Source: Halichondria panicea
Lineage: Eukaryota
Length of the DNA: 64,000 bases
Direction: 5' to 3'
NCBI RefSeq assembly: GCF_963675165.1
Contig: NC_087378.1
Location: 270,562 to 334,561 of the forward strand
Both the position numbers and the translations under genes were made by a program. The notes beneath the pieces were generated by a model. It was not told where the DNA came from and ran no database searches. It saw only the letters and a program-made list of their open reading frames with translations. The first letter of the stretch is position 1; every line of letters begins with the position of its first letter. Positions 1 through 63,648 of the stretch are shown here, in pieces.

Positions 1-181
1 ATTTCTTGGCCTAATAATTATAGGCTGTATAATTATAGAGACAATAATTATATATCTCTGGGATTATATTAATAATAGGTATGGCTTAGTGAATTATGCT
101 GTTTGGCCATTCTCTGCTGCAATTAAGTGCACTGCAGTCCACTGTACAGCTAGCCACTGCATGTAGAACAGTGTACAGAGC

Positions 182-3100
182 CTATAGTGTGCATGGTACT
201 ATCACTGTATGTTTTCTCGTGGGGTAAAACAGTTCTGCTATAGCTATCTTGTTTCGAGAGGCTGGCCTACCATTGTCTGTGATGGTAACGACGGTTGTCT
301 GGGGGGCCACAAACAGCGCCCCCTGGGGAGGGGGGGACACCAACACTACAGAGAATGACTCAGTAGACTCTGAAGTAGTATCATCTAGGAGGGCCACATT
401 GACACACATCTCAGTGGGGGAGGAGGAGTCAAACACCAATGGGAATGAATCGGCCACAAAGTCAGAGCCAGCTGTAAAAATAAGTGTATGAGCATTAGCA
501 CAGGGAGGAGGTACACTTACCAATTGCTGATCCTGTTTCTTGTGTTGCTATAGTTATTGGTAGACTGATAGCAAGGGCTGGACCACTCACACTCACACAC
601 ACACTCACAAAACTGGTTCCTTCACTCACACTATCGGCAGCCTGAGAGAAGGACACTTGTGCATCTGAGAGAAGGGGGCGGGCATTAAGAGGGTGCGATT
701 AGATTGGGTGTGGTCTTACTGTCAGAGTTGTTGATGATTACTGTTCCCATGGATACACCAAATGTGATTGCATTGCTGGTGCTACTTAGTTCCACTGTGA
801 AGGTCTCGCTACTCTCCACTAGATTGTCTGGTGCTATGGCAATGTTCACACACTGTCTGACGTCAGATGAAGAGAATATCAGGAATTCATTGACACCAGT
901 GTAGTCAGAGCCAAACACTGGAGGGAGGAGAAGGGTTATATAATTATAACAAGACAATTTCGGAAAATTCAACAAGAAATGCAAACGTATCTATCAAGAA
1001 CACTAAAAAACCATGTGCACACAACCTTAAGGTCTTTACCGTTTTTGAACGAAACAAAATTTAAGATGTACATGTACAAATTAAGATTCACAGCCCAAAG
1101 TTAATCTGTCTGGGATACAAGTTACATAATTGTATATCAAAACAGGACCATTAATTTTTGTAAAAATTCCTTACATGCAATATATGGTGGCTATCCCTCA
1201 AAGTGTTTATTAAAGAAAAGGTTAAAAGTTGCAAAAGTTACGAGTTAGTCTTACGTGCAGTAGCGGTCCCGTCCATGGTAGTGAGTTGAACACCAGCTAA
1301 TCCAGTCAACTGTCCTTGAGTAATGGCTGCACACACCATCACAGACCCCTCACTCTCACTTATGATATAGTTGGCCTCCTCTAAGGAGATGGTGGCAGCT
1401 GTGGTGGGGTTGTGTTCAGTGATTGAGCATATAATAAATTATGTAATTAAGCTACTTACATGTGTCATCATCAAGAATGGTAACTGTTCCCATGGATACA
1501 CCAAGTGTGATTGCATCGCTGGTGCTACTTAGTTCCACTGTGAAGGTCTCACTACTCTCCACTAGATTGTCTGATGCTATGGCAATGTTCACACACTGTC
1601 TGACGTCAGATGAAGAGAATATCAGGAATTCAGTGACACCAGTGTAGTCAGAGCCAGACAGTGCAGTGGCAGTTCCGTCCATGGTAGTGAGTTGAACACC
1701 AGCTAATCCAGTCAACTGTCCTTGAGTAATGGCTGCACACACCATCACAGACCCCTCACTCTCACCTACGGTATAGTCGGCCGCCTCCAAGGAGATGGTG
1801 GCAGCTGTGGTGGGGTTGTGTTCAGTGATTGAGCATACAATAAATTATGTAATTAAGCTACTTACATGTGTCATCATCAATAATGGTAACTGTTCCCATG
1901 GATACACCAAGTGTGATGGCATCACTGGCGCTACTTAGTTCCACTACGAAAGTCTCGCTACTCTCCACTAGATTGTCTGGTGCTATAGCAATGTTCACGC
2001 ATTGTCTGGTATTGATGGATGACAGGAATTGAGCAGAGTTGACGGGAGTGTAGTCAGAGCCAGGCGCTAGAGGGGGGTGGATAGTGAGGGTATCATCACC
2101 AGCTACTCCACTTACTAGCTGTTCCAACAACACTAGAGAACTGGAGGGGCAGGAGCACTCCAGGGTCAATTTCTCCATCAGTAATGGCTGCACACACCAT
2201 CAGAGATCCACTATCCTCAGTCACACTGTACACACCCATCTCTAGGGAGACTGTCACGGCTGTGTGTGTGTGTGGGAGGGGGAGGGGAGTGATCACTCAC
2301 CTTATACCAGCAAGAGTTGACTTACTATCATCATTGAGAATGGTGACTGTTGCCATTGAAGCACCCAGTGTGACATCAGGATCAGAGCTAGTCAGTTGCA
2401 GTGTGAAGGTCTCATCATTTTCTACCCGACTGTCTTGAGTGATGCTGATACCACCACACTGTGTCAGACCATTGGCAGTGAACGTGAGAGACATAGTACC
2501 CAGGAAATAGTCACTACCGGCCTCTGTAAGGGAAGGAGGGATTGTGTCAGTCGAGGTGTTTAGTGCATTGCCAGCATCCATCAACTCACCAGCTGTTCCG
2601 TCCGTGGCAGAGAGTTGAACTGACACAGTTTCAGCTGACAACAGCTGTTCACTGGTAATGACTGCACACACCACCAGAGATCCACTATCCTCAGCAACAC
2701 TGTACACATCCATCTCTAGGGAGACTGTCACGGCTGTTGTGGTGGGGTTAGTAATACTGTAGGGTCGTTTATATTGAAGTTGAACTTACTATCATCATCA
2801 ACAATGGTAACTGTTCCCATGGATACACCAAATGTGATTGCATCGCTGGTGCTACTTAGTTCCACTGTGAAGGTCTCGCTACTCTCCACTAGATTGTCTG
2901 ATGCTATGGCAATGTTCACACACTGTCTGACGTCAGATGAAGAGAATATCAGGACTTCAGTGACACCAGTGTAGTCAGAGCCAGACAGTGCAGTGGCAGT
3001 TCCGTCCATGGTAGTGAGTTGAACACCAGCTAATCCAGTCAACTGTCCTTGAGTAATGGCTGCACACACCATCACAGACCCCTCACTCTCACCTATGGTA

Positions 3101-6100
3101 TAGTCGGCCAACTCCAAGGAGATGGTGGCAGCTGTGGTGGGGTTGTGTTCAGTGATTGAGCATACAATAAATTATGTAATTAAGCTACTTACATGTGTCA
3201 TCATCAATAATGGTAACTGTTCCCATGGATACACCAAATGTGATTGCATCGCTGGTGCTACTTAGTTCCACTGTGAAGGTCTCGCTACTCTCCACTAGAT
3301 TGTCTGATGCTATGGCAATGTTCACACACTGTCTGACATCAGATGAAGAGAATATCAGGACTTCAGTGACACCAGTGTAGTCAGAACCAGACAGTGCAGT
3401 GGCAGTTCCGTCCATGGTAGTGAGTTGAACACCAGCTAATCCAGTCAACTGTCCTTGAGTAATGGCTGCACACACCATCACAGACCCCTCACTCTCACCT
3501 ACAGTATAGTCGGCCAACTCCAAGGAGATGGTGGCAGCTGTGGTGGGGTTGTGTTCAGTGATTGAGCATACATAAATTATGTAATTAAGCTACTTACATG
3601 TGTCATCATCAATAATGGTAACTGTTCCCATGGATACACCAAATGTGATTGCATCGCTGGTGCTACTTAGTTCCACTGTGAAGGTCTCGCTACTCTCCAC
3701 TAGATTGTCTGATGCTATGGCAATGTTCACACACTGTCTGACGTCAGATGAAGAGAATATCAGGACTTCAGTGACACCAGTGTAGTCAGAGCCAGACAGT
3801 GCAGTGGCAGTTCCGTCCATGGTAGTGAGTTGAACACCAGCTAATCCAGTCAACTGTCCTTGAGTAATGGCTGCACACACCATCACAGACCCCTCACTCT
3901 CACCTACAGTATAGTCGGCCAACTCCAAGGAGATGGTGGCAGCTGTGGTGGGGTTGTGTTCAGTGATTGAGCATACAATAAATTATGTAATTAAGCTACT
4001 TACATGTGTCATCATCAATAATGGTAACTGTTCCCATGGATACACCAAATGTGATTGCATCGCTGGTGCTACTTAGTTCCACTGTGAAGGTCTCGCTACT
4101 CTCCACTAGATTGTCTGATGCTATGGCAATGTTCACACACTGTCTGACGTCAGATGAAGAGAATATCAGGACTTCAGTGACACCAGTGTAGTCAGAGCCA
4201 GACAGTGCAGTGGCAGTTCCGTCCATGGTAGCGAGTTGAACACCAGCTAATCCAGTCAACTGTCCTTGAGTAATGGCTGCACACACCATCACAGACCCCT
4301 CACTCTCACCTACGGTATAGTCGGCCAACTCCAAGGAGATGGTGGCAGCTGTGGTGGGGTTGTGTTCAGTGATTGAGCATACAATAAATTATGTAATTAA
4401 GCTACTTACATGTGTCATCATCAATAATGGTAACTGTTCCCATGGATACACCAAATGTGATTGCATCGCTGGTGCTACTTAGTTCCACTGTGAAGGTCTC
4501 GCTACTCTCCACTAGATTGTCTGATGCTACGGCAATGTTCACACACTGTCTGACGTCAGATGAAGAGAATATCAGGACTTCAGTGACACCAGTATAGTCA
4601 GAGCCAGACAGTGCAGTGGCAGTTCCGTCCATGGTAGTGAGTTGAACACCAGCTAATCCAGTCAACTGTCCTTGAGTAATGGCTGCACACACCATCACAG
4701 ACCCCTCACTCTCACCTACGGTATAGTCGGCCAACTCCAAGGAGATGGTGGCAGCTGTGGTGGGGTTGTGTTCAGTGATTGAGCATACAATAAATTATGT
4801 AATTAAGCGACTTACTTATACGATCACCATCAAGAATAGTAACTGTTGCCATGGATACACCAAGTGTGACATCATCGCTGGTGCTACGTAGTTCTACTGT
4901 GAAGGTCTCGCTACTCTCCACTAGATTGTCTGATGCTATGGCAATGTTCACACACTGTCTGACGTCAGATGAAGAGAATATCAGGAATTCAGTGACACCA
5001 GTGTAGTCAGAGCCAGACAGTGCAGTGGCAGTTCCGTCCATGGTAGTGAGTTGAACACCAGCTAATCCAGTCAACTGTCCTTGAGTAATGGCTGCACACA
5101 CCATCACAGACCCCTCACTCTCACCTACAGTATAGTCGGCCAACTCCAAGGAGATGGTGGCAGCTGTGGTGGGGTTGTGTTCAGTGATTGAGCATACAAT
5201 AAATTATGTAATTAAGCTACTTACATGTGTCATCATCAATAATGGTAACTGTTCCCATGGATACACCAAATGTGATTGCATCGTTGGTGCTACTTAGTTC
5301 CACTGTGAAGGTCTCGCTACTCTCCACTAGATTGTCTGATGCTATGGCAATGTTCACACACTGTCTGACGTCAGATGAAGAGAATATCAGGACTTCAGTG
5401 ACACCAGTGTAGTCAGAGCCAGACAGTGCAGTGGCAGTTCCGTCCATGGTAGTGAGTTGAACACCAGCTAATCCAGTCAACTGTCCTTGAGTAATGGCTG
5501 CACACACCATCACAGACCCCTCACTCTCACCTACGGTATAGTCGGCCAACTCCAAGGAGATGGTGGCAGCTGTGGTGGGGTTGTGTTCAGTGATTGAGCA
5601 TACAATAAATTATGTAATTAAGCTACTTACATGTGTCATCATCAATAATGGTAACTGTTCCCATGGATACACCAAATGTGATTGCATCGCTGGTGCTACT
5701 TAGTTCCACTGTGAAGGTCTCGCTACTCTCCACTAGATTGTCTGATGCTATGGCAATGTTCACACACTGTCTGACGTCAGATGAAGAGAATATCAGGACT
5801 TCAGTGACACCAGTGTAGTCAGAACCAGACAGTGCAGTGGCAGTTCCGTCCATGGTAGTGAGTTGAACACCAGCTAATCCAGTCAACTGTCCTTGAGTAA
5901 TGGCTGCACACACCATCACAGACCCCTCACTCTCACCTACAGTATAGTCGGCCAACTCCAAGGAGATGGTGGCAGCTGTGGTGGGGTTGTGTTCAGTGAT
6001 TGAGCATACATAAATTATGTAATTAAGCTACTTACATGTGTCATCATCAATAATGGTAACTGTTCCCATGGATACACCAAATGTGATTGCATCGCTGGTG

Positions 6101-9100
6101 CTACTTAGTTCCACTGTGAAGGTCTCGCTACTCTCCACTAGATTGTCTGATGCTATGGCAATGTTCACACACTGTCTGACGTCAGATGAAGAGAATATCA
6201 GGACTTCAGTGACACCAGTGTAGTCAGAGCCAGACAGTGCAGTGGCAGTTCCGTCCATGGTAGTGAGTTGAACACCAGCTAATCCAGTCAACTGTCCTTG
6301 AGTAATGGCTGCACACACCATCACAGACCCCTCACTCTCACCTACAGTATAGTCGGCCAACTCCAAGGAGATGGTGGCAGCTGTGGTGGGGTTGTGTTCA
6401 GTGATTGAGCATACAATAAATTATGTAATTAAGCTACTTACATGTGTCATCATCAATAATGGTAACTGTTCCCATGGATACACCAAATGTGATTGCATCG
6501 CTGGTGCTACTTAGTTCCACTGTGAAGGTCTCGCTACTCTCCACTAGATTGTCTGATGCTATGGCAATGTTCACACACTGTCTGACGTCAGATGAAGAGA
6601 ATATCAGGAATTCAGTGACACCAGTGTAGTCAGAGCCAGACAGTGCAGTGGCAGTTCCGTCCATGGTAGCGAGTTGAACACCAGCTAATCCAGTCAACTG
6701 TCCTTGAGTAATGGCTGCACACACCATCACAGACCCCTCACTCTCACCTACGGTATAGTCGGCCAACTCCAAGGAGATGGTGGCAGCTGTGGTGGGGTTG
6801 TGTTCAGTGATTGAGCATACAATAAATTATGTAATTAAGCTACTTACATGTGTCATCATCAATAATGGTAACTGTTCCCATGGATACACCAAATGTGATT
6901 GCATCGTTGGTGCTACTTAGTTCCACTGTGAAGGTCTCGCTACTCTCCACTAGATTGTCTGATGCTATGGCAATGTTCACACACTGTCTGACGTCAGATG
7001 AAGAGAATATCAGGACTTCAGTGACACCAGTATAGTCAGAGCCAGACAGTGCAGTGGCAGTTCCGTCCATGGTAGTGAGTTGAACACCAGCTAATCCAGT
7101 CAACTGTCCTTGAGTAATGGCTGCACACACCATCACAGACCCCTCACTCTCACCTACGGTATAGTCGGCCAACTCCAAGGAGATGGTGGCAGCTGTGGTG
7201 GGGTTGTGTTCAGTGATTGAGCATACAATAAATTATGTAATTAAGCGACTTACTTATACGATCACCATCAAGAATAGTAACTGTTGCCATGGATACATCA
7301 AGTGTGACATCATCGCTGGTGCTACGTAGTTCCACTGTGAAGGTCTCGCTACTCTCCACTAGATTGTCTGATGCTATGGCAATGTTCACACACTGTCTGA
7401 CGTCAGATGAAGAGAATATCAGAAATTGATTAACACCAGTGTAGTCAGAGCCAGACACTGGAGGGAGGAGAAGGGTTATAAAATCGGGAAGGAAGTGACA
7501 AGAGTAGTCTTACGTGCAGTGGCAGTTCCGTCCATGGTAGTGAGTTGAACACCAGCTAATTCAGCCAACTGTCCTTGAGTAATGGCTGTACACACCATCA
7601 CAGACCCCTCACTCTCACCTACGGTATAGTCGGCCACCTCCAAGGAGATGGTGGCAACTGTGGTGTGATGGGGGGTAGTCAGGCATACAACACACACCAT
7701 AACTTATGCAAATCAGAGTCAGTAACTACAATGGTGGCTATTCACTCACCGTTACTATCAATAATTTCCACTGACACATCTTGTAGGGTCACCGTGACGA
7801 ATGAGTCTCCAGCTGTAATGTGGCCAGTGAAGATTTCAGAGGATTCCAGTAGTTGGTCATCATTGATTGTCACCTCAACATTCTGTATTCCCGGACCACT
7901 AAACTCAATAATCTGTACCGTACCGTCGTAATCATCAGGGGCTGTAATTATAGGTATGATAGCATGAGTGGTGCTGACTCAGCAAGCTGCTGACTTACCT
8001 TCCGCTGAACCATCACGTGTGTAGAAAACAAAGTACGAGGTGAGGGGCTGCACTTGTATGGGATCAGGGAAATCTCCACTGATGCTGACTGATAATACGA
8101 GGGGACCTTCATTCTCCCGGACCCGCACAGAAGAAGCCGTGAAACCAACAGTGATCTCTGGAGGAGCAGTGAATAATTGATCATGACATAATTATATTGT
8201 AATACAGTGGAACCTCCATTAACGACCACCTCCAATTGCAAAGAGCAACCACACGCTATATAACGGCCAAGAGCTCAGGTCCGGATTGAAACTACAATGA
8301 CTTCAATGTAAAGCAACCTTTCAGGAGCGACCACCTCTTTACTCCGCATAACGAGCAGCTTTCTAGTCGGCCCCAACTAGCTTTAGCAACGGAAAATAAC
8401 CTCCAGAATTAGCAGAAAATTATTGCTGAGATAGCATTATTTTGCACAATCGTGAAAACCTGGCTGTAGCTTGTCTCTACAGCCTTTTCAAAGCTTGTAT
8501 GAGCTAAAGAAGCAGTTAGCAAAGCCCCAAGATTCCTTTGCAGCAAGAAATGACTCATAGAAAATACATAGCTGGCAATCGAAACCTCCCAAGGAAGACC
8601 ACCTCTCTATAACGGCCAAAAGGCTGGTCCCCAATGGTGTCCATTTTATGAAGGTTCCACTGTACATGTTTGAACTTATTATTGACTACCTTATTATAAA
8701 CGGGTACTAATTTTAGCAAATTTTAGCGAACTTGTAATTAATGCTAAATTAAGTACCGTACGGGTAGAAAATTTCGAGGTGTTTTTAATTTCGCGTTTTT
8801 CGTGGGTGGCTGCAGAACACGAAAATTAAAACCTATGGAAGGCTTCGTATACGCATGCGAGATAGTGCCACACCCTAACTCCACGAAATTTACTACCCGC
8901 GAAATTTTCCAAATAAGACAGAATATTGAATTGCACGAAAATTTACACCCTCGAAATTTTCCACCTGTACGGTACGCGCTAATAATAAAACGCAATTGAT
9001 AAAAAAATATGTATGTTTTTTTTTCATATACTTTTGTATAATGTAATGTACTTTTGAGAGTATGCTAAGCAAGCTAGCCCTTTCTTTATCTGTATCTGAC

Positions 9101-9279
9101 TCCAAACTTTCCATTCAACCTTAAAACTCATACTTGTACATCTTTTGAGATATAATTATTGTGGTAATGAATTTGCTACAAATCCGCCAAAATTAGTACC
9201 CTAAAAACAGAGAAAAACCTGAAAACGCTAAAATTACTACCCATCTATTAAGGTATTGTATACATAATGTACCATTTTC

Positions 9280-9311
<32 letters not shown>

Positions 9312-11387
9312 AGTGTTTTACCAGGGAAGCAAGAGGCAGTGAGGATGTCCTCACAGCAGTCTCCTCGCTGGAAACAGCCCTGAGAGCACGAGCAGTTGAC
9401 TAGTGCCACGGAGATGACACAGTCAGTGGTGCTGCTCTCTACACAGCAGCCATCGTACACACCACGGCACAAGTCTACAGTATGTCAGACACCATGCGTA
9501 ATAGTGACTCTATAGTTCCTACATCTAACCTGTAGGGAATGCACCACTGCCACTGCCACTGCCACTCCCACTGCCCATAAGCTCTGCACACAGTGACAAA
9601 GAGTGTGAGAATGGAATGCAACACATTAAGCTCATTAGCCTTGTACCAGGCAGAGAAATGCACACACACAACAAACACTCACCACTGCAAGACAAGCCAT
9701 CACCCGTGTAACCAGGCAGACACACACACTCAAAACCAATCGCCATGTCAACACAATTGGCATTAGGGTCACAGTTACTCAGACCTTGCAAGCACTCATC
9801 AACCACTGAAATATAAGGAGGAGACCATTATTATTAGTATGTGGCCATACTAACATAATTATATCCCTCACACCGATGCTTAAACAAACACTGACTAGCT
9901 GCTACGTACTATACTACATCGATAATTAGCACAATTATAATATGTGCGCATGATATATATAAACTCACAGGGTCTCTCTACCGAGGTGCCCACTTCAAAT
10001 ATCCACACTCCTCCAACTCCAACGTTGGTGGTTGTATCAAGCTCCAGGACAGCACCCGTGTTGGAGCCAGGCAAAAAGAACATGTTGGAACCTTCCCCAA
10101 TAAAACCCACGTCAGCTCTGTCCCCCCCGAATCCATTGACCCCACCATCACTATCCCCTGTCATCCATTGTAGGAGGTTGTCTGCATACATCAGGACAGT
10201 GAAGGATCTTACTCCATCAGTGGCCACTATGCACTGGAACGTATTTGTCTGGGGAGGAACAAGAGAGGACAATTATACTTTGCACTGCAAGTAATTGTAT
10301 TTGACAAACCATGCAATACTACCACTCACTAGATCATCATGGTTGTCTTGGTAGCCGACGTAGAACCAGGTGGCAATGAAAGCACTTGAGACAGTAGAGC
10401 TACCAAAGCCGAGGTTGGCTAGTTCGTTGACTCTGTTCAATACTGCAAGCTCTGTAGTCTCTCGATAGAAGACATGTCCAATACTAGTTGTGTCTGCATC
10501 AGCTGAGAAGGCATAGACGGATGCTGAGGTTCCACCACTGCTGACCAACTCCAACACACCATCAGTGTGCACCTATGCATGGGATTAGGGGGTAGGGCAA
10601 CACAAGAGAGGTAATATGTGCAGTGGGGGGGGGGGGGGGGGGGGATTGCAGTGCATGCATTAAAGAGGTAGTGAGTGCAGGGGGGTTAGTATGCGGGCCA
10701 GGCAGTGCAGGACAACACACAATGTGGGAGAGGTAATGGAGAGACAATCATTGCCTGGTACTGAGGTAGTACAGTGTAGGGTGCATGGTGACTGGTACAA
10801 GTGTCCACATGACAACACCATATACAGTCCAACTATCTCTGCTATGTGGGTGATCATAATTATCAATACAAACATTGGATTGCATTCTGCAAACTGAGGC
10901 TAAAGATGGAAAGCGATGCGAGCACCACTCACGCACACACACACTACTCCCAGGCCTTCCTTTTATTGCTGATTTAGTCTAGCTGAGTATCTATCTATAG
11001 AAGGCAGCAAAAAACAAAAAGACGACATGAGGCAGCAATCAACTTATTGTGACATGCAAGAACAGAAGAAAGAGCCTGTGTAGCCACCACACACACACAC
11101 ACATGCATACACACATATATACTACAGGCAATACACCACTCACTCACACACACACACACAGAGGCTACAGATAATGCACGTACTGTAATAGTCTCCCGCT
11201 GCAGTCCTAGGAATGGAATATTGGCCGCTAAATTCACAGAAGCTGATACATCATTTCCTCGCTGCAACTCAGTGTCTCCAGAGTCGGGGCCAAATGGCAG
11301 GAACATGGGGAGAGGTATCGCCCACACAGTCTGGAGGGCCGTCAGACATAGTAACAAAACTCTCACTGACACCATAACCTCCACCAT
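182..11387 (-). CDS. Multi-exon gene for a secreted NIDO / cbEGF / SMB-like / Calx-beta (at least 20 copies) protein; the 3' end probably runs off the window start. Exon 1 is ~11196-11387. NIDO exons are ~10322-10567 and ~9960-10250. The cbEGF exon is ~9690-9806 and the SMB-like exon ~9300-9462. Divergent Calx-beta exons lie at ~7950-8160 and ~7745-7930, the near-identical array at 720-7700, and a further Calx-beta exon at ~243-523.
   Basis: Minus-strand translations: exon 1 MVEVMVSVRVLLLCLTALQTVWAIPLPMFLPFGPDSGDTELQRGNDVSASVNLAANIPFLGLQRETIT has a signal peptide followed by the NIDO N-terminal motif. ...HTDGVLELVSS...AFIATWFYVGYQDN and ...NTFQCIVATDGVRSFTVLMYADNLLQW are NIDO-like. VVDECLQGLSNCDPNANCVDMAIGFECVCLPGYTGDGLSCS is a calcium-binding EGF domain. 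CSCSQGCFQRGDCCEDILTASC matches the somatomedin-B cysteine pattern. The repeated ...ADYTVGESEGSVMVCAAITQGQL...SSETFTVELSSTSDAITFGVSMGTVTIIDDD is a Calx-beta domain. Every exon is bounded by GT...AG with a consistent phase (DDDT then one extra nt, then GTAAGT). Confidence 0.6.
1260..7700 (-). repeat. Tandem array of about 15 near-identical units of ~405-406 bp, each unit being one Calx-beta exon (~339 bp, 113 codons, phase-preserving) plus one ~66 bp GT-AG intron. More divergent units lie at 1858-2731 and 7745-8160.
   Basis: ORF track shows 112-aa MELADYTVGESEGSVMVCAAITQGQLTGLAGVQLTTMDGTATALSGSDYTGVTEVLIFSSSDVRQCVNIAIASDNLVESSETFTVELSSTSDAITFGVSMGTVTIIDDDTCK repeating at 3185, 3590, 3996, 4402, 5217, 5623, 6028, 6434 and 6840, with a period of 405-406 bp. 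The intron sequence gtaagtagcttaattacataatttattgtatgctcaatcactgaacacaaccccaccacag is itself conserved. A handful of diagnostic substitutions (LATMDG, STND, ELRSTSDDVTL...ILDGDR) are shared between non-adjacent units. Confidence 0.9.
8198..8657. mobile_element. MITE-like non-autonomous TIR element in an intron of the Calx-beta gene. TIRs are TACAGTGGAACCT / AGGTTCCACTGTA, flanked by TA, as in Stowaway/Tc1-mariner-derived elements.
   Basis: ...gtaaTACAGTGGAACCTCC... at ~8198 and ...gaAGGTTCCACTGTAcatg at ~8645-8657. Internal direct repeats accacctc...taacggccaa. No ORF. Confidence 0.45.
8756..8975. mobile_element. Second MITE-like element with ~25-bp TIRs, TACCGTACGGGTAGAAAATTTCGAGG / CCTCGAAATTTTCCACCTGTACGGTA. 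It belongs to a dispersed TACCGTA-ended repeat family.
   Basis: Terminal inverted repeats read directly at 8756-8782 and 8950-8975. Related TACCGTA(T/C)ACG...GAAAATT ends occur at ~12672, ~43776, ~44097 and ~46327. Confidence 0.4.
9285..9311. repeat. (TG)n microsatellite in an intron.
   Basis: tgtgtgtg... run. Confidence 0.9.
10625..10645. repeat. Poly-G homopolymer (~21 nt).
   Basis: cagtggggggggggggggggggggattg. Confidence 0.9.
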
Positions 11388-12037: not shown

Positions 12038-27471
<15,434 letters not shown>

Positions 27472-57429: not shown

Positions 57430-59612
57430 ATGGGTATTAACCTAAGTCAAAGCAAGCAAACAGGTAAGTGTCCCCTATATACTAAGTGTTGGTACCTGGT
57501 GCTGCATGATCTCACTCTCCAAGGCTTCATTGACGAGAGTGGAGAATACAACCAGGAGTGTTGGCATGAGTGGGTGCTGTATCACAAATCCAAGTCACTA
57601 CCTGCCTCGTTGGATCGTGGGTCAAGTACTCTCAATGAATTTGAAAGGCTATCTAGCAAATCTGAGCCGCCTACAATAAAACGTAAGAAAGCTCCAACTT
57701 TTACAATTGGTCCTGCTACCAACAACTCGCCAGAAAGTGACTCCGACAAAGAGTTAGAACCACACATTCTTAATGGTGAGATTCTCCGCATTTTTTTGCA
57801 TGATTATTCTAAGTATACACCATTTTTGCAGGCGTATACTGCATACAGAAACCAGATGTGATTGATATTACATCAGCAGGGGCAATGTATCCAACAGTTA
57901 AAGATCAAAAAACAGCCTTTGGTGTCAATTTTGAGGTTCCCAAAGGAGCTGTTCCGACCGATGCTGCTACATCGTTAGAAGTGGCTGTTTGTCTCAGTAT
58001 CGGTTCGAGCCAATACCCAGAGGACACCACTCCCATCTCCCCCATCCTCCAGCTACATCCCAAAGAAAACTTCAAGCTCCTGCAGCCGATCACTGTCACC
58101 ATGCCACACATACTCTCTGAGCCCTCTGATATAGGAGTCATGAAAGCTGTGACCACGGAGGACCGGTTTGAGAAAATCGATACAGAAATTACTCTTGGGA
58201 ATAAAGATGGACATGGAACAGCTACTTTCCGTTTGGAGCACTTCTGCTACATACAGCTGTACACTAAACTAACACCCGATACAACAAAAACAATTCGCTA
58301 TTGTATTTTTCCAGTTCTACCCAGGAAGGTTCCCTTTGATGGGTCGTTTATGCTGTACTTCTGCATAAGTTATCATATGAAAGAATGTCGTGAGGTAAGT
58401 ACACTCTAATTATGTATACTGACTCCTTGAGCTAGTGTTTCTGTACGTACAGGCAATTGAAGATCAGTGTAAGAATATAGCAAAGCTCAAGGAGCATGGC
58501 CATGAACTTGTAGAGGACAAGCTTCAACCGTTTTTGTTCAAGCCTGAAGCCAATAGCATCAGTGCTACCTGTACTAGACCCAAACAGAAATCAGGTTGGG
58601 AGTGGAGAAATCTCAACGGAGAAAGAGGAGTGAGTTTAGTATATTATACAAGTCATGTGCTTTTATTGTTACATAATTATGCTAGTGTACAATGAAGTTG
58701 ATTGTACATGTATGCTTCCCCAGATTGTAACAGAATCAGTCAAACCATGGAGCATGGACCCTGCTAATCTGAAGGATGAAGCTAACAGATTTCTCTATCC
58801 CCCCAGCTTTAAGGTAGAGGTACGGGGCTCCGGAAACAGAACAAGTCAAGATGAAATCGTTATGAATTTCTCTGGAAATACCGAGACACCTCTTCCAGAT
58901 ATTGGTTTTTACCTACCAGGTAGTATAGGGTGTGTCATGACTGACATTGATGCTTTGATTGCCTTAGGGAATAATGCTGCCTTGAATCTAGGAGACCATG
59001 ACAAATCGCATCTGTCGTTAGGTGGGACAAGTTGCATATGCTCTATTATTGTAATTAGCTCCAATTCATCCAGGTTCAACTGTATACGACTCAGCTACGT
59101 GTACCACACAAGAATCAGTTCTTAGGACTAATTATGAGGACATCATCTCAATGGTTTCACAAGATACGCAGGGTGTTGCTGACAGCCTGTTCTCCAAAAG
59201 GCTTATCGAAACACCAATCCGAGATGACGTGAGGGATGATCGCAGAGGTTCCAACAGAGACAGGGCAAGAAAAATTGTGGACAACATATTTGATAGGATT
59301 AAAGGAAAACATATCAATTACGAGCAATTTCGTACCTTTTTGGACATTCTTGCTTCTCAAAGTCAAGAAAACAGCCAGAAAATAAAAGAAATACTTGGTA
59401 ACTTGTAATTAACGTGCATTTGCTTAATTTTGTGTATCAATACAGATTCGGATAGAGAGAATTTGAGTCCCACGATTGAAACCGACGATCTAGCCAGCTC
59501 TTTAGATTCAGTGTTTGAATTTGAGGCCCCTCCTTCTACATCTGACATTCCCGGGTCCAGTGGTAGCAGTGACAGTGAAGAAACTCATCGTCGTATCACT
59601 CAAGGACAATAA
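57430..59612 (+). CDS. Gene F. It has an MG-start micro-exon (MGINLSQSKQT, 57430-57463), a linker exon, a ZU5 domain and UPA-like region (57830-58396), further exons, and a C-terminal death-fold (DD/CARD-like) domain.
   Basis: ZU5: AFGVNFEVPKGAVPTDAATSLEVAVCLSIGSSQYPEDTTPISPILQLHPKENFKLLQPITVTMPHILSEPSDIGVMKAV. UPA-like: GTATFRLEHFCYIQLYTKLTPDTTKTIRYCIFPVLPRKVPFDGSFMLYFCISYH. Death-fold: SQDTQGVADSLFSKRLIETPIRDDVRDDRRGSNRDRARKIVDNIFDRIKGKHINYEQFRTFLDILASQSQENSQKIKEIL. Stop at 59610-59612. Confidence 0.6.
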
Positions 59613-60919: not shown

Positions 60920-63648
60920 ATGGCTGAAGGTAACTAAATAAGTATCAACCTGAATTGTGGTTAACTTGTTATCTGAATATATTAGCTGTTTCAACTGTTT
61001 TCTGTTTCCATACACAGGAGGGAAAGGCGAAGAATTGCCAGATTATGGGGAGGATTGGACACACATTGAATCAAGTAACTTTCAGACAATATAATTATGC
61101 ATTACTGATTAATGACGTGTGTTCACTATTTAAATCGTGACACTCTTGTGCAGGTGATGCTGAAAAACTCAAGCTGCTGTTACCTCCAATGAATTATTCT
61201 GTCTTTAACAAGGATGGAGTAAACATAGACTTTGTTGAGCCAGGTAATCATTTACAGTTAATTACTAGCAAATAGGAGACTTATTGATGCATGATAACAC
61301 AGTTGCCAACACTGCGGACACCAACCTTGAAGTCAGTGATGATCCTGCAGCTGCAGGTAAAGCGCATGCATGATAATTATATATATATAGCACTTATTGA
61401 TGATGATAATACAGTTGCTGACTCTGCATTAAGTACAGACACCAGCCTTGAAGTCAGTGATGATCCTACAGATTCAGCCAATCTGTTGTCAACCAGCACT
61501 GATGAGTTAGCTGCATCATTACCATCGAAAGATCTGCCTGCAAGTAATAGTAAGGAGCTTCAAGTACGATTGTTGCATGCATAATTTATGCTAGAATCAT
61601 TTGCAGATCAAACTGAAACAACCAGTACTTTTGATAAAGATGCTAGTAAGGGACCAACTATGCTACTTCAGGGAAATGAAAAACCTACTGAATGCATAAT
61701 TCAAGGTCACGAGGACTGTACAGTAACCACTCAAGGTACTCTATTGTAACTAACTGATTGGTTGCGTTGATACATCCATACAGATTATGTGCAACCGCCC
61801 ACTCTATTTGAGGTGTCTTCTGAAGGAGGAACATGTTCTCTCAAGGATCTGAATGTTACCATCAAAATTCCACAAGGAGCTGTTCCGCCTGGTGTTAAGG
61901 CATATTTTCGAGTAGCAGTGTGTCTTGGCAGTGGACAGAGTGTGTATCCAGCGGGCGCAATCCCCATCTCCGCAGTCTTTTTGCTACAAATGACAAACGG
62001 AGTTGAGCTCCAGGAACCTGTCAGAATTTCTCTGCCGCACTTTCTGTCGGACCCTGCTAAAGTTGGTGAAATGGGTGTTATGAAAGCTCCACACGACGAG
62101 TCTGGTCCCCCAAAGTTTATTGAACAGCCTTGTAAAGTTACACCTGTAGATGGGCACGAAATAGCCACTTTTTCTATTCAGCACTTCTGTTACTTGCAAT
62201 TGTATACAAAAGCAAAATCTGAAGAGGCTTTGGAATTCAGGTACTGCATTTGTCCGGTTTTGCCTCTCTTTTCAAATATGCCTCTTGGCACACCATTTTT
62301 TATGTATTTCTGCTTGACGTACTTTGATCCAACTTTCTTGATGGTGAGAGTCACTAGCGTGTGTGCTTAGGTATGTATGTATTACATGTGTCTATTCTTC
62401 ACCCCTCAGGCACTTGATTCACAGTGTGAAACAGTTCCCAGATTAAAGAACCATCGTGTTGATAAGGACAGAATAATACAGTTTACTGCATCACACAGTT
62501 TGAGGGTTAGCACTGTCAAATATAAAGTCAATAAACCACAACGCAATAGTGGCTGGCAGTGGGACGTTTCTTACACTGTGAGTATTTTCTTTAACTTCAC
62601 CATTGTATATAGGATTGACACATAACGTCTTTTTTCCAGGCTCTAGATATGCCTCTTCATCCCTCAGAACACACTGATAATGGCTTTAAATATTTGTTCA
62701 ACTCATTCCTCTATCCTCCAAGTTACAAATTGGAGGTCTGTGGCTCTGGGAGCAAAACAAATACAGATATGGTTGTAGTAACCTTCCGAGACTGTTCAGG
62801 AAAGAAAATTGAAATAGCGGTGCCGCTACCATCTTATACCCCTGGTAAGTGTACACAGATTGTTACTAATAAACGTTATGATATTTGATTGACTTTACCT
62901 CAGGCCCCAAAGAGCCGGAAAAGCTTTCTCCTGAGTACATAGTGTTCAAACTATGCTCAACAAAGCTAATACAGATAATAAAAATAGTCGCGGTTACCTT
63001 TGGTGATGCTCTTTGGTCAGCGGACTTGATACCGAGTGATGTGTTGGACTGCACGCGGGAGATGACACACGCTGTAGAGAAAGCTCAGAAGCTAGTGTAT
63101 ACCATAAGAGACTCTATTGAGCATAGGCCGAGCAAGTATCATGACTTTGTTAAAGTTCTGAAAGACAATAACGAATCATGGGCGATCAATGCCCTCAGCA
63201 CACTGGATAAATGCTACAGTGACCTCAAAGGGAAATATATTTCAGAAGTACTAGAACACCACAGAACAACTCTTATAGTGGAAATTAATCCCATATTGGG
63301 CAGAGTAATCAATCGTCTCTGGAGATTGTGTATTGTTCGAGTTCCTGACTCTAGGAAGTCGGCCCAAGATGTCATAACTATCTTAGGCGATGAGCTGAAA
63401 TGTAAACCATGGCTGTTTAAAAATGCATGCATTGCTCTCGGCATTGGAGGCCTGAAAAAGGACACTATTAAAACCATTCAAGGTATGTCAGTGAGTATGT
63501 GATGAGTGTTCACAATGTCATATCATGCAGTTACGGTGTGTAAGCGCTTCCCTAAAGCTTTGAAGGAGACACAAGTGCTTGATGGGAGTGGTGGTAGAAG
63601 AGAGCTGATGGTAGAGAACACTCCTAAGAGAACCCTGACTATGCCGTG
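60920..63648 (+). CDS. Gene G, a paralogue of gene F. It starts with a Kozak ATG (gccaccATGG), followed by small acidic/Ser-rich exons, a ZU5 + UPA exon (61783-62345), two middle exons, and a large exon (62905-63480) with tandem death-fold domains, then a short terminal exon.
   Basis: ZU5: TLFEVSSEGGTCSLKDLNVTIKIPQGAVPPGVKAYFRVAVCLGSGQSVYPAGAIPISAVFLLQMTNGVELQEPVRISLPHFLSDPAKVGEMGVMKAP. UPA: HEIATFSIQHFCYLQLYTKAKSEEALEFRYCICPVLP...FFMYFCLTYF. Death-folds: IQIIKIVAVTFGDALWSADLIPSDVLDCTREMTHAVEKAQKLVYTIRDSIEHRPSKYHDFVKVLKDNNESWAINALSTL and ILGRVINRLWRLCIVRVPDSRKSAQDVITILGDELKCKPWLFKNACIALG. Exon order parallels gene F (..SGWEWRNLNGERG / ..SGWQWDVSYT; ..FLYPPSFKVEVRGSGNRT / ..FLYPPSYKLEVCGSGSKT). 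Confidence 0.55.

What the first reader, a model, noticed from the sequence alone, without database searches (positions are those of the whole stretch)
1260..7700. Hyper-regular exon-plus-intron tandem array of near-identical Calx-beta modules
About 15 consecutive units of 405-406 bp are essentially identical (>98%) across both the 339-bp Calx-beta exon and its 66-bp intron. Only a handful of diagnostic substitutions differ (LATMDG, STND, ELRSTSDDVTL..ILDGDR), and these are shared between non-adjacent units. That pattern indicates very recent unequal-crossover amplification and ongoing gene conversion, or a copy-number-variable locus. Every exon is symmetrical (phase 1/1), so copy number can change without disrupting the reading frame. 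Calx-beta polyproteins of this kind are the hallmark of sponge aggregation factors, which are implicated in cell adhesion and allorecognition, so this may be a hypervariable self/non-self adhesion locus. The array may also be collapsed or expanded in the assembly.
Basis: partly seen in the sequence, partly recalled or inferred. Interest (0 to 1): 0.8.

Follow-up and report, generated by a model that had tools for sequence, protein, structure and literature searches.

The report
Copy-variable Calx-beta exon array, sponge
A giant secreted matrix or adhesion gene of the sponge Halichondria panicea contains a very young run of almost identical exon-plus-intron units, each encoding one calcium-binding Calx-beta domain; two assemblies carry 11 and 8 units, but the gene does not look like a classical sponge aggregation factor.

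Summary

**The array**
- There are 11 consecutive units of 405-409 bp (window 7192-2734), plus a twelfth at 1804-1399. There are not about 15.
- Each unit is one 345-nt exon (one of 348 nt, one of 342 nt) plus a 60-61-nt intron. All introns are GT-AG and phase 1.
- Each exon is one complete Calx-beta domain (Pfam 82 bits).
- Every other module in the gene is split into exons of 144 nt and about 200 nt. The amplified unit has therefore lost its mid-domain intron.
- Exons and introns are equally similar (0-5 differences per 406 bp), so the identity reflects recency, not selection.
- The "non-adjacent shared" variants mostly come from a 6-unit (2,438-bp) block duplication.

**Copy number**
- An independent contig of a different haplotype carries 8 units instead of 11. 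Its reading frame is intact and its units carry private variants. This is direct but unvalidated evidence for copy-number variation.

**The gene**
- It is from Halichondria panicea and reads: signal peptide, NIDO, EGF, Cys-rich segment, 23 Calx-beta domains, then an orphan 184-aa C-terminus. The predicted protein is 3,193 aa.
- The C-terminus is too short to hold a Wreath domain, and no aggregation-factor gene cluster surrounds the gene.
- Aggregation-factor membership and a role in allorecognition remain unproven.

The parts
2734..7192 (-). Contiguous array of 11 fused single-exon Calx-beta units. Exons: 7192-6848, 6786-6442, 6380-6036, 5975-5631, 5569-5225, 5163-4816, 4754-4410, 4348-4004, 3942-3598, 3537-3193, 3131-2790. 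Each is followed by a 60-61-nt intron (56 nt after the last exon).
   Evidence: Tandem Repeats Finder: period 406, 11.5 copies, 97% matches. Exon and intron boundaries, GT-AG and phase 1. Pairwise differences of 0-5 per 406 bp among generic units. Pfam Calx-beta 82 bits per unit.
5230..7457 (-). First copy of the higher-order (6-unit, 2,438-bp offset) block
   Evidence: At offset 2438, window 2792-5019 matches 5230-7457 with 13 mismatches in 2,228 bp. Variants are shared in register: 6786 with 4348, 6380 with 3942, 5975 with 3537, 7192 with 4754, 7657 with 5163.
2792..5019 (-). Second copy of the higher-order block. It begins inside unit 5163, which is a chimera: a generic 5' part (up to unit position 174 at most) joined to a 3' part of the 7657-module type (from position 276 on).
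7254..7657 (-). 5' flanking Calx-beta module that is still split: exons 7657-7514 (144 nt) and 7457-7254 (204 nt), separated by a 56-nt mid-domain intron. It is about 93% identical to the array unit once the intron is removed.
1866..2733 (-). Two divergent split Calx-beta modules that interrupt the run: exons 2733-2590 and 2523-2326, then 2259-2116 and 2066-1866. The last of these exons is followed by the array-type 61-nt intron.
1399..1804 (-). Isolated twelfth fused unit: exon 1804-1460 plus a 61-nt intron.
   Evidence: 7-10 differences from the generic units
720..1398 (-). Split module related to the unit: exons 1398-1255 and 917-720, with a 337-nt mid-domain intron. The ends of this intron match those of the 56-nt intron in module 7657.
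271..664 (-). Last Calx-beta module inside the window (exons 664-521 and 471-271). The gene continues past window position 1.
   Evidence: The continuation was recovered from locus L007.
7750..8157 (-). First Calx-beta module of the gene: exons 8157-7999 and 7941-7750.
9322..11387 (-). 5' end of the same gene. ATG at 11387 with a hydrophobic leader. NIDO domain in exons 11387-11184, 10572-10330 and 10248-9969. EGF exon 9805-9683. (GS)n linker exon 9583-9530. Cys-rich exon 9474-9322. A 1,164-nt intron then joins in frame (phase 1) to exon 8157.
   Evidence: in-frame splice model. Pfam NIDO 126 bits and EGF_3 39.2 bits; no family found for the Cys-rich exon.

Best explanation
The feature is a very recent, copy-number-variable tandem array inside one gene. 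That gene is a 44-exon, roughly 3,200-codon gene of the demosponge Halichondria panicea. It encodes a secreted, very acidic protein built as signal peptide, NIDO, EGF, Cys-rich segment, about 23 Calx-beta domains and a 184-aa C-terminal region.

Inferred history: the ancestral Calx-beta module has two exons (144 nt plus about 200 nt, both phase 1). In one module the mid-domain intron was removed precisely. The resulting 345-nt exon, together with its 61-nt downstream intron, was then multiplied by in-register unequal crossing-over. A later exchange duplicated a 6-unit block. Further exchanges still add or remove whole units, giving 11 units in the window and 8 in a second haplotype.

Every unit is phase 1/1 and keeps canonical splice sites. 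Each gain or loss therefore adds or removes exactly one 115-residue Calx-beta domain without breaking the reading frame.

Inferred function: the Calx-beta run forms a calcium-stiffened rod of an extracellular matrix or adhesion protein, and the array changes its length and valency.

What is shown: the anatomy, the domain identity, the species, the equal similarity of exons and introns, and the difference between the two assemblies. What is inferred: the order of events, expression, and the protein's role.
For: - **Repeat and gene model:**
- **Domain identity:** Pfam Calx-beta at 82 bits per unit. phmmer against the PDB aligns the unit to CALX/NCX1 CBD1-CBD2 at E = 1.4e-13. Acidic residues at several positions are retained, including the '(I/L)-D-D-D' strand end. 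That these are the calcium-binding positions is my own knowledge of CBD1.
- **Intron loss:** all 6 non-array modules in the window are split at the same codon, and 4 of the 5 modules downstream are split as well (the other's second half is fused to the following half-module). The fused exon equals 144 + 201 nt, and its junction is the exact splice product. Amphimedon aggregation-factor Calx-beta domains use the same roughly 145-bp exon and phase 1 introns (PMC5400394).
- **Recency:** 5 synonymous and 8 replacement variant sites fall on 86 and 259 sites respectively. There are 2 intron variants in 61 nt.
- **Higher-order block:**
- **Second allele:** ENA contig ctg15267 has 8 units, open frames and private unit variants. 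Its flanks differ from the window at 9 of 2,789 and 5 of about 3,300 positions, so it is a different haplotype.
- **Short-read assembly:** a contig of another assembly ends 21 nt into the first unit.
- **Species:**
- **Full architecture:**
Against: - No reads or transcripts could be examined. The unit count of either assembly could be wrong, and splicing of every unit is assumed from intact signals only.
- The two alleles cannot be related by one clean exchange. Unit L14362 differs from its positional partner, window unit 4754, at 4 sites.
- A simple 6-unit duplication predicts 13 modules, but 12 are present. At least one extra event is needed.
- No experiment bears on the protein's function.
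Confidence: 0.82

Rival explanations
1. The gene is a true sponge aggregation factor (MAFp4/AqAF family), and the array is a hypervariable allorecognition determinant.
For: - The organism is a demosponge.
- The protein has many Calx-beta domains behind a leader peptide.
- The exon pattern (144 nt plus about 200 nt) and the exclusive use of phase 1 match the AqAFs (PMC5400394).
- Copy number differs between haplotypes.
- AqAFC also has exon-plus-intron repeats, at about 85% identity.
Against: - The C-terminus after the last Calx-beta domain is only 184 aa, in four short exons. It has no Pfam or PDB match. In the AqAFs the Wreath domain occupies the last three exons, and the final two average 523 and 336 bp.
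- A NIDO-EGF head is not part of the described aggregation-factor architectures.
- There is no other Calx-beta gene in the 64-kb window, and none was seen among the called genes of the 6 kb downstream of the gene's stop. The neighbours are SMC, FAA hydrolase, MVP and MA3 genes.
- The units differ from each other too little to encode much specificity.
Confidence: 0.1
2. The array is old and is kept uniform by continual gene conversion (concerted evolution), rather than being a recent amplification.
For: - Similarity falls off towards the edges of the array, in module 7657, unit 1804 and module 1398. This is typical of homogenised arrays.
- Some variants are shared out of register with the 6-unit block: position 286 in units 7192 and 5569, and position 177.
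- Variants are redistributed between alleles.
Against: - The in-register 6-unit pattern has only 8 mismatches in about 2.2 kb. This is of the same order as allelic divergence in the flanks and points to a duplication on the timescale of present polymorphism.
- The two explanations are not exclusive, since unequal exchange produces both effects.
Confidence: 0.2
3. The array, or its copy number, is an assembly artefact: an expansion in the reference or a collapse in the second contig.
For: Near-identical 406-bp units are hard to assemble. The two assemblies disagree, 11 versus 8. Short-read contigs break at the edge of the array.
Against: - Both long contigs show the same order of distinguishable units: split module, five generic units, the 409-bp chimera, then the terminal unit.
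- Units carry their own variants, and the second contig has private ones.
- The flanks show that the two contigs are different haplotypes.
- The whole array is under 5 kb.
Confidence: 0.07

Closest known systems
Repeats inside Amphimedon queenslandica aggregation-factor genes (AqAFC R1-R3, AqAFE R1-R2; Grice et al. 2017, PMC5400394)
   Same: Both are sponge Calx-beta multi-domain genes with duplicated segments covering exons and introns. Both show an extreme bias to phase 1 introns and the same modular exon of about 145 bp.
   Different: The AqAFC repeats are two-domain units at about 85% identity in three copies. Here the unit is one domain with its internal intron lost, present in 11-12 copies at about 99-100% identity, and the number differs between haplotypes. 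The gene has a NIDO-EGF head and no Wreath-sized tail.
[quoted passage not shown]
   Same: The domain combination (NIDO plus Calx-beta) is the same, and both are demosponge secreted proteins.
   Different: Only the description is available. No sequence could be compared, so orthology is untested. That protein was 8.2% of the filtered aggregation-factor preparation but 0.5% after size-exclusion chromatography, so it is not a stable component of the aggregation factor.
Human LPA kringle IV type-2 coding copy-number variation (PMC7613587)
   Same: It is a tandem array inside a gene whose near-identical units include exon and intron. Each unit adds one protein domain in frame, and alleles differ in unit number and hence in protein size.
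   Different: The domain (kringle), the lineage and the unit are unrelated. LPA has more than 40 isoforms documented in populations, whereas only two alleles were seen here.
Calx-beta domains of Na+/Ca2+ exchangers (CALX/NCX1 CBD1-CBD2; PDB 3rb5, 3us9)
   Same: The sequence family is the same (E = 1.4e-13). Acidic residues are retained at several aligned positions, including the '(I/L)-D-D-D' strand end. That these positions bind calcium in CBD1 is my own knowledge.
   Different: Those domains are cytoplasmic regulatory domains present as a pair. Here there is an extracellular run of about 23.

Membership tests
Pfam Calx-beta (PF03160) | Match to the family HMM above the gathering score | tested here: met
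   82.4 bits per fused unit against a cut-off of 27. All other modules also match.
Sponge aggregation factor, Group 1 (Grice et al. 2017) | [quoted passage not shown] | tested here: inconclusive
   The 3' end of the gene was recovered from the allelic contig. After the last Calx-beta domain only 184 aa remain, in exons of 144, 126, 165 and 119 nt, with no Pfam or PDB match. The AqAF Wreath domain spans three exons, and the last two average 523 and 336 bp. A full Wreath domain therefore does not fit. However, the Wreath HMM itself was not available to run.
Sponge aggregation factor, Group 2 (Grice et al. 2017) | [quoted passage not shown] | tested here: met
   18 modules in the window and 23 in the full gene.
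Sponge aggregation factor, Group 2 (Grice et al. 2017) | Top BLAST hit is a known aggregation factor (AqAF, MAFp3/p4, GEOCY AF, SdSLIP) | not testable with these tools
   No aggregation-factor sequences were reachable. The protein searches returned only distant, mostly unnamed hits from metagenome and genome assemblies at about 30% identity; the few names are bacterial. The supplements of both papers are not held.
Sponge aggregation factor (characteristic, not strictly defining) | Calx-beta modules in a pattern of about 145-bp exons, with virtually all introns in phase 1 | tested here: met
   144-nt first exons. Every intron from the one preceding the EGF exon to the stop codon is phase 1. Non-aggregation-factor Calx-beta genes of Amphimedon are also 78-82% phase 1, so this is weak evidence.
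Sponge aggregation factor (characteristic) | Lies in a tight cluster of paralogous aggregation-factor genes | tested here: not met
   tblastn with the unit finds Calx-beta coding sequence only at 1-8160 of the 64-kb window. Upstream neighbours are SMC, FAA hydrolase, MVP and MA3 genes. Downstream genes carry no Calx-beta domain in the precomputed annotation and include a gene with a beta-TrCP domain; two read by eye as Thr-rich membrane proteins.
Coding copy-number-variable exon array (LPA KIV-2 type) | Tandem near-identical units containing exon and intron, each unit in frame | tested here: met
Coding copy-number-variable exon array (LPA KIV-2 type) | Alleles differ in unit number | tested here: met
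   11 units in the window against 8 in ENA ERZ26868619 ctg15267, which is a different haplotype by flank SNPs. This rests on two assemblies only and is not validated with reads.
Pfam NIDO (PF06119) / EGF_3 (PF12947) | Match above the gathering score in the same reading frame as the Calx-beta exons | tested here: met
   NIDO 126 bits (cut-off 25). EGF_3 39.2 bits (cut-off 28.5). The splice model is in frame.

The most novel reading that the evidence does not exclude
[quoted passage not shown] Individuals would then carry size and sequence isoforms of a calcium-dependent adhesion rod that contribute to tissue compatibility. This would be a second polymorphic component of sponge self/non-self recognition, outside the Wreath-domain aggregation-factor family.
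Probability: 0.1. Interest if true: 0.7.

Novelty: new member of a known kind. Interest (0 to 1): 0.4.

Why it matters
This is a clean, datable example of how giant modular matrix and adhesion genes grow. An intron is lost within a module, the symmetrical phase 1/1 exon plus its intron is amplified, a block is then duplicated, and the copy number still differs between haplotypes.

For sponge biology it flags a NIDO-Calx-beta protein class, already seen as a major component of crude aggregation-factor preparations, as a candidate length-polymorphic protein. This could be checked with a single PCR.

For genome work it marks a locus where assemblies disagree and short-read contigs break.

It does not by itself change what is known about allorecognition.

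Tried and rejected
- **Protein database searches.** A search with a 347-aa stretch of the protein (the first Calx-beta module, the split module at 7657 and one array unit) found only distant hits at about 30% identity; the few named ones are bacterial. All were shorter than about 600 aa, and no sponge protein appeared. The N-terminal 405 aa found two ORF fragments only. The C-terminal 184 aa found one ORF fragment from another sponge contig, which reaches only the last exons.
- **Representative library.** With one NIDO exon it returned NIDO fragments and multi-NIDO proteins, but no full-length relative.
- **Look-ups by exact protein.** The RefSeq protein of the neighbouring gene was not on record. 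The exact 97-aa unit ORF was found only on the same ENA contig, so no third allele is available.
- **Paper supplements.** Those that might hold aggregation-factor or Clathria prolifera sequences are not held.
- **Structure prediction.** A single-sequence AlphaFold model of one unit was all-beta but had low confidence (pLDDT 56), so it was not used.
- **RNA genes.** Rfam and tRNA scans of the window found nothing.
- **Somatomedin-B reading of the Cys-rich exon.** The cysteine pattern suggested it, but Pfam gave no match, so it is left unnamed.
- **Positive selection on the units.** This was considered and rejected: 8 replacement against 5 synonymous variants gives a ratio of about 0.5 on tiny counts.


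Full report
**1. The observation**

Tandem Repeats Finder reports a 406-bp period at 2792-7457 (11.5 copies, 97% matches, score 8914). It reports a second patch at 1255-2008 (1.9 copies, 93%). Reading the minus strand shows coding units bounded by '...ccaccacag|CTGCCACC...' and '...GACACAT|gtaagtag...'.

I built the exon model by hand. It has 24 exons from 8157 down to 271. Every intron is GT-AG and every intron is in phase 1. The joined reading frame has 2,070 codons without a stop, whereas the other two frames have 152 and 188 stops.

The fused exons are 345 nt (348 nt in unit 5163, 342 nt in unit 3131). The introns are 61 or 60 nt.

There are 11 consecutive units (7192-2734). Two clearly different modules follow, differing from the unit at about 176 and 106 of about 406 positions. 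After them come a twelfth unit (1804-1399) and a related split module.

Among the nine generic units the pairwise differences are 0-5 per 406 bp. Unit 1804 differs at 7-10 positions, and unit 5163 at 19-21.

**2. What the unit is**

One unit translates to 115 residues. It matches Pfam Calx-beta over the whole model: 82.4 bits against a cut-off of 27. All other modules in the gene match as well.

Against solved structures, two tandem units align to the CBD1-CBD2 pair of CALX/NCX1 at E = 1.4e-13. Acidic residues are retained at several aligned positions:
- the Glu in 'YTVGESEG'
- the Asp in 'TMDGTA'
- the acidic residues in 'SDNLVESSETF'
- the terminal 'IIDDD'

That these are the calcium-binding positions of CBD1 is my own knowledge, not a tool result. 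A single-sequence AlphaFold model was all-beta but of low confidence (pLDDT 56), and I do not rely on it.

**3.

Every Calx-beta module in the window outside the array is encoded by two exons. The first is 144 nt (159 nt in the first module) and the second is 192-204 nt. A phase 1 intron splits each module at the same codon. The six split modules are 8157/7941, 7657/7457, 2733/2523, 2259/2066, 1398/917 and 664/471. Four of the five modules downstream of the window are split in the same way; the other's second half is fused to the following half-module (section 7).

The array exon is 345 = 144 + 201 nt. Its sequence across the junction (...ACTGCAC|TGTCTGG...) is exactly the spliced product of the flanking split module 7657.

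The mid-domain introns of modules 7657 (56 nt) and 1398 (337 nt) share their ends (gtaagact... ...ataacccttctcctccctccag). The intron is therefore ancestral and was removed precisely in the unit that later multiplied.

**4. How young the array is, and why variants are shared at a distance**

Among the ten generic fused exons there are 13 variant sites. Five are synonymous (on about 86 synonymous sites) and eight are replacements (on about 259 sites). The 61-nt introns carry two variants.

Exons, synonymous sites and introns are thus about equally uniform. This is what recent duplication predicts, and it is not what protein-level selection predicts.

The variant table and the distance matrix show a period of six units:

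| Unit pair | Differences |
|---|---|
| 6786 and 4348 | 1 |
| 6380 and 3942 | 0 (including the same 1-nt intron deletion) |
| 5975 and 3537 | 1 |
| 7192 and 4754 | 2 |

In addition, the 3' part of unit 5163 equals that of split module 7657.

At an offset of 2,438 bp, window 2792-5019 matches 5230-7457 with 13 mismatches in 2,228 bp. Only 8 of these fall in the central 2,182 bp.

Unit 5163 is a chimera. It is generic up to position 174 at most, and of the 7657 type from position 276 on. This is the expected junction of an unequal exchange between the first split module and a unit six places downstream.

Two variants do not fit the six-unit register: position 286 in units 7192 and 5569, and position 177. 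A simple duplication also predicts one more unit than is present. Additional exchanges or conversions must therefore have occurred.

**5. Copy number differs between two assemblies**

An exact look-up of an intronless ORF in the window identified the organism as Halichondria panicea: XP_064383744.1, on an 8.64-Mb contig.

By walking from ORFs shared with the window I fetched an ENA assembly (ERZ26868619). One of its contigs, ctg15347, is 100% identical to window 34303-55913. Another, ctg15267 (431 kb), covers window 1-24364.

That second contig has the same gene, the same split module and five generic units followed by the 409-bp chimera. After the chimera, however, it has only one generic unit and the terminal unit. 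That makes 8 fused units instead of 11, a difference of 1,217 bp.

Several results show it is a different haplotype:
- All its units keep open frames.
- Its units carry private substitutions not seen in any window unit.
- Its flanks differ from the window at 9 of 2,789 and 5 of about 3,300 positions.
- It also has a (TG)n length difference.

Its terminal unit looks like the 5' part of window unit 4348 joined to the 3' part of unit 3131. An in-register exchange removing three units would produce exactly this. The neighbouring unit does not match as simply, though.

A short-read contig of another assembly (GCA_022076545.1) ends 21 nt into the first fused unit, as expected for a real repeat.

I could not examine reads. 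The counts therefore remain assembly-level evidence.

**6. The whole gene**

Upstream, six further exons join in frame. They encode an ATG with a hydrophobic leader, a NIDO domain (126 bits), an EGF domain (39 bits), a (GS)n linker and a 51-residue Cys-rich segment with no family match. A 1,164-nt intron then leads to the first Calx-beta exon.

Downstream, on the allelic contig, thirteen more exons follow, all in phase 1. They encode five more Calx-beta domains (273 bits in total). One of these exons fuses the second half of one module to the first half of the next. After them comes a 184-residue C-terminal region in four short exons, and then a stop codon.

The C-terminal region has no Pfam match and no PDB sequence match. 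It is conserved in one ORF fragment from another sponge contig.

The predicted protein of the window allele has 3,193 residues, a mass of about 330 kDa and a pI of 4.05. I saw no transmembrane segment.

**7. Is it an aggregation factor?**

Grice et al. define aggregation-factor candidates in two ways. Group 1 has a Wreath domain. Group 2 has at least three Calx-beta domains plus a best BLAST hit to a known aggregation factor.

In favour:
- The Calx-beta count is met.
- The exon pattern and phase 1 bias agree. They are also common in other sponge Calx-beta genes.

Against, or untested:
- The C-terminus is too short and too differently organised to hold an AqAF-type Wreath domain, which occupies the last three exons, the final two averaging 523 and 336 bp. 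I could not run the Wreath HMM, however.
- The BLAST criterion was not testable.
- The gene is not in a cluster. No other Calx-beta coding sequence occurs in the 64-kb window. The neighbours are SMC, FAA hydrolase, major vault protein and MA3-domain genes on one side. On the other side are two ORFs that read by eye as Thr-rich membrane proteins, and a gene with a beta-TrCP domain.

[quoted passage not shown] It made up 8.2% of the filtered aggregation-factor preparation but 0.5% after size-exclusion chromatography (PMC11670116).

I therefore file the gene as a sponge NIDO-EGF-Calx-beta extracellular protein, possibly associated with the aggregation factor. I do not file it as an aggregation factor.

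**8. Mechanism, and how far it is shown**

Shown:
- the anatomy
- the domain family
- the precise intron loss
- the equal uniformity of exon and intron
- the six-unit block
- the in-frame nature of unit gain and loss
- two alleles with different counts

Inferred:
- Unequal sister-chromatid or allelic exchange is the generating process.
- All units are spliced into the mRNA.
- The Calx-beta run forms a calcium-dependent extracellular rod whose length changes by one domain per unit.
- The protein acts in matrix organisation or cell adhesion.

The allorecognition idea remains a speculation. The units are almost identical to each other, so most variation would be in length, not in sequence.

**9. 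Novelty and score**

Arrays of repeated exons in giant extracellular genes are known. So are coding copy-number variants such as LPA KIV-2 (PMC7613587). Exon-plus-intron repeats have been noted within the Amphimedon aggregation-factor genes, at about 85% identity.

This case is a new and unusually young member of that kind. It has a clear intron-loss step and assembly-level evidence of allelic copy-number difference, in a barely described protein class. Interest is 0.4.

Noticed in passing
window 17584-19473 (+) and 21648-23433 (+): An intronless 629-aa ORF, apparently with several membrane-spanning segments, has no Pfam match (it is XP_064383744.1, 'uncharacterized'). A tandem second copy about 4 kb downstream is about 96% identical at the DNA level but is broken into two overlapping ORFs of 249 and 388 aa. 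In the other haplotype the first copy is called as 549 aa.
   Followed up: partly
window 23568-24489: A 27-bp minisatellite (TTATGCTGATTTATACTTATTGCTGCT) is present in 34 copies at 98% identity. The ENA contig ctg15267 ends inside it, at about window 24364.
   Followed up: partly
L007 8979-8647 (minus strand; outside the window, 3' of it): This is a second kind of fused exon in the same gene. A single 333-nt exon joins the second half of one Calx-beta module to the first half of the next. Here an inter-module intron was lost rather than a mid-domain one.
   Followed up: partly
L007 6858-6095 (minus strand; C-terminal exons of the gene): The 184-aa Cys-containing C-terminal region has no Pfam or PDB sequence match. 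It is conserved, with the same exon break, in an ORF fragment from another sponge contig (P0244 on L008). It could correspond to the Ig-like plus Fn3-like 'AF-interacting region' described in Clathria prolifera, but this could not be tested.
   Followed up: partly
window 8158-9321 (the 1,164-nt intron): This unusually long intron contains several copies, in both orientations, of a motif like 'aaatttcg(c/a)gggt(g/a)(t)aaatttcgtg', as well as other repeat-like sequence. It may be a small inserted mobile element. A 73-aa ORF within it recurs unchanged in four other assemblies.
   Followed up: no
window 9284-9316: A (TG)n microsatellite just inside the donor end of the long intron is 28 nt longer in the second haplotype.
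   Followed up: yes
window 57858-58409 (+) and 61789-62370 (+): Two related ORFs with ZU5 domains (Pfam 27 and 33 bits) lie about 4 kb apart. They suggest a duplicated ZU5-containing gene at the right end of the window.
   Followed up: partly
window 13610-13711, 15884-15996, 16974-17080: Three long dinucleotide or tetranucleotide microsatellites lie around the SMC-like ORFs: (GT) in 51 copies, (GT) in 56 copies and (ACAC) in 27 copies.
   Followed up: no
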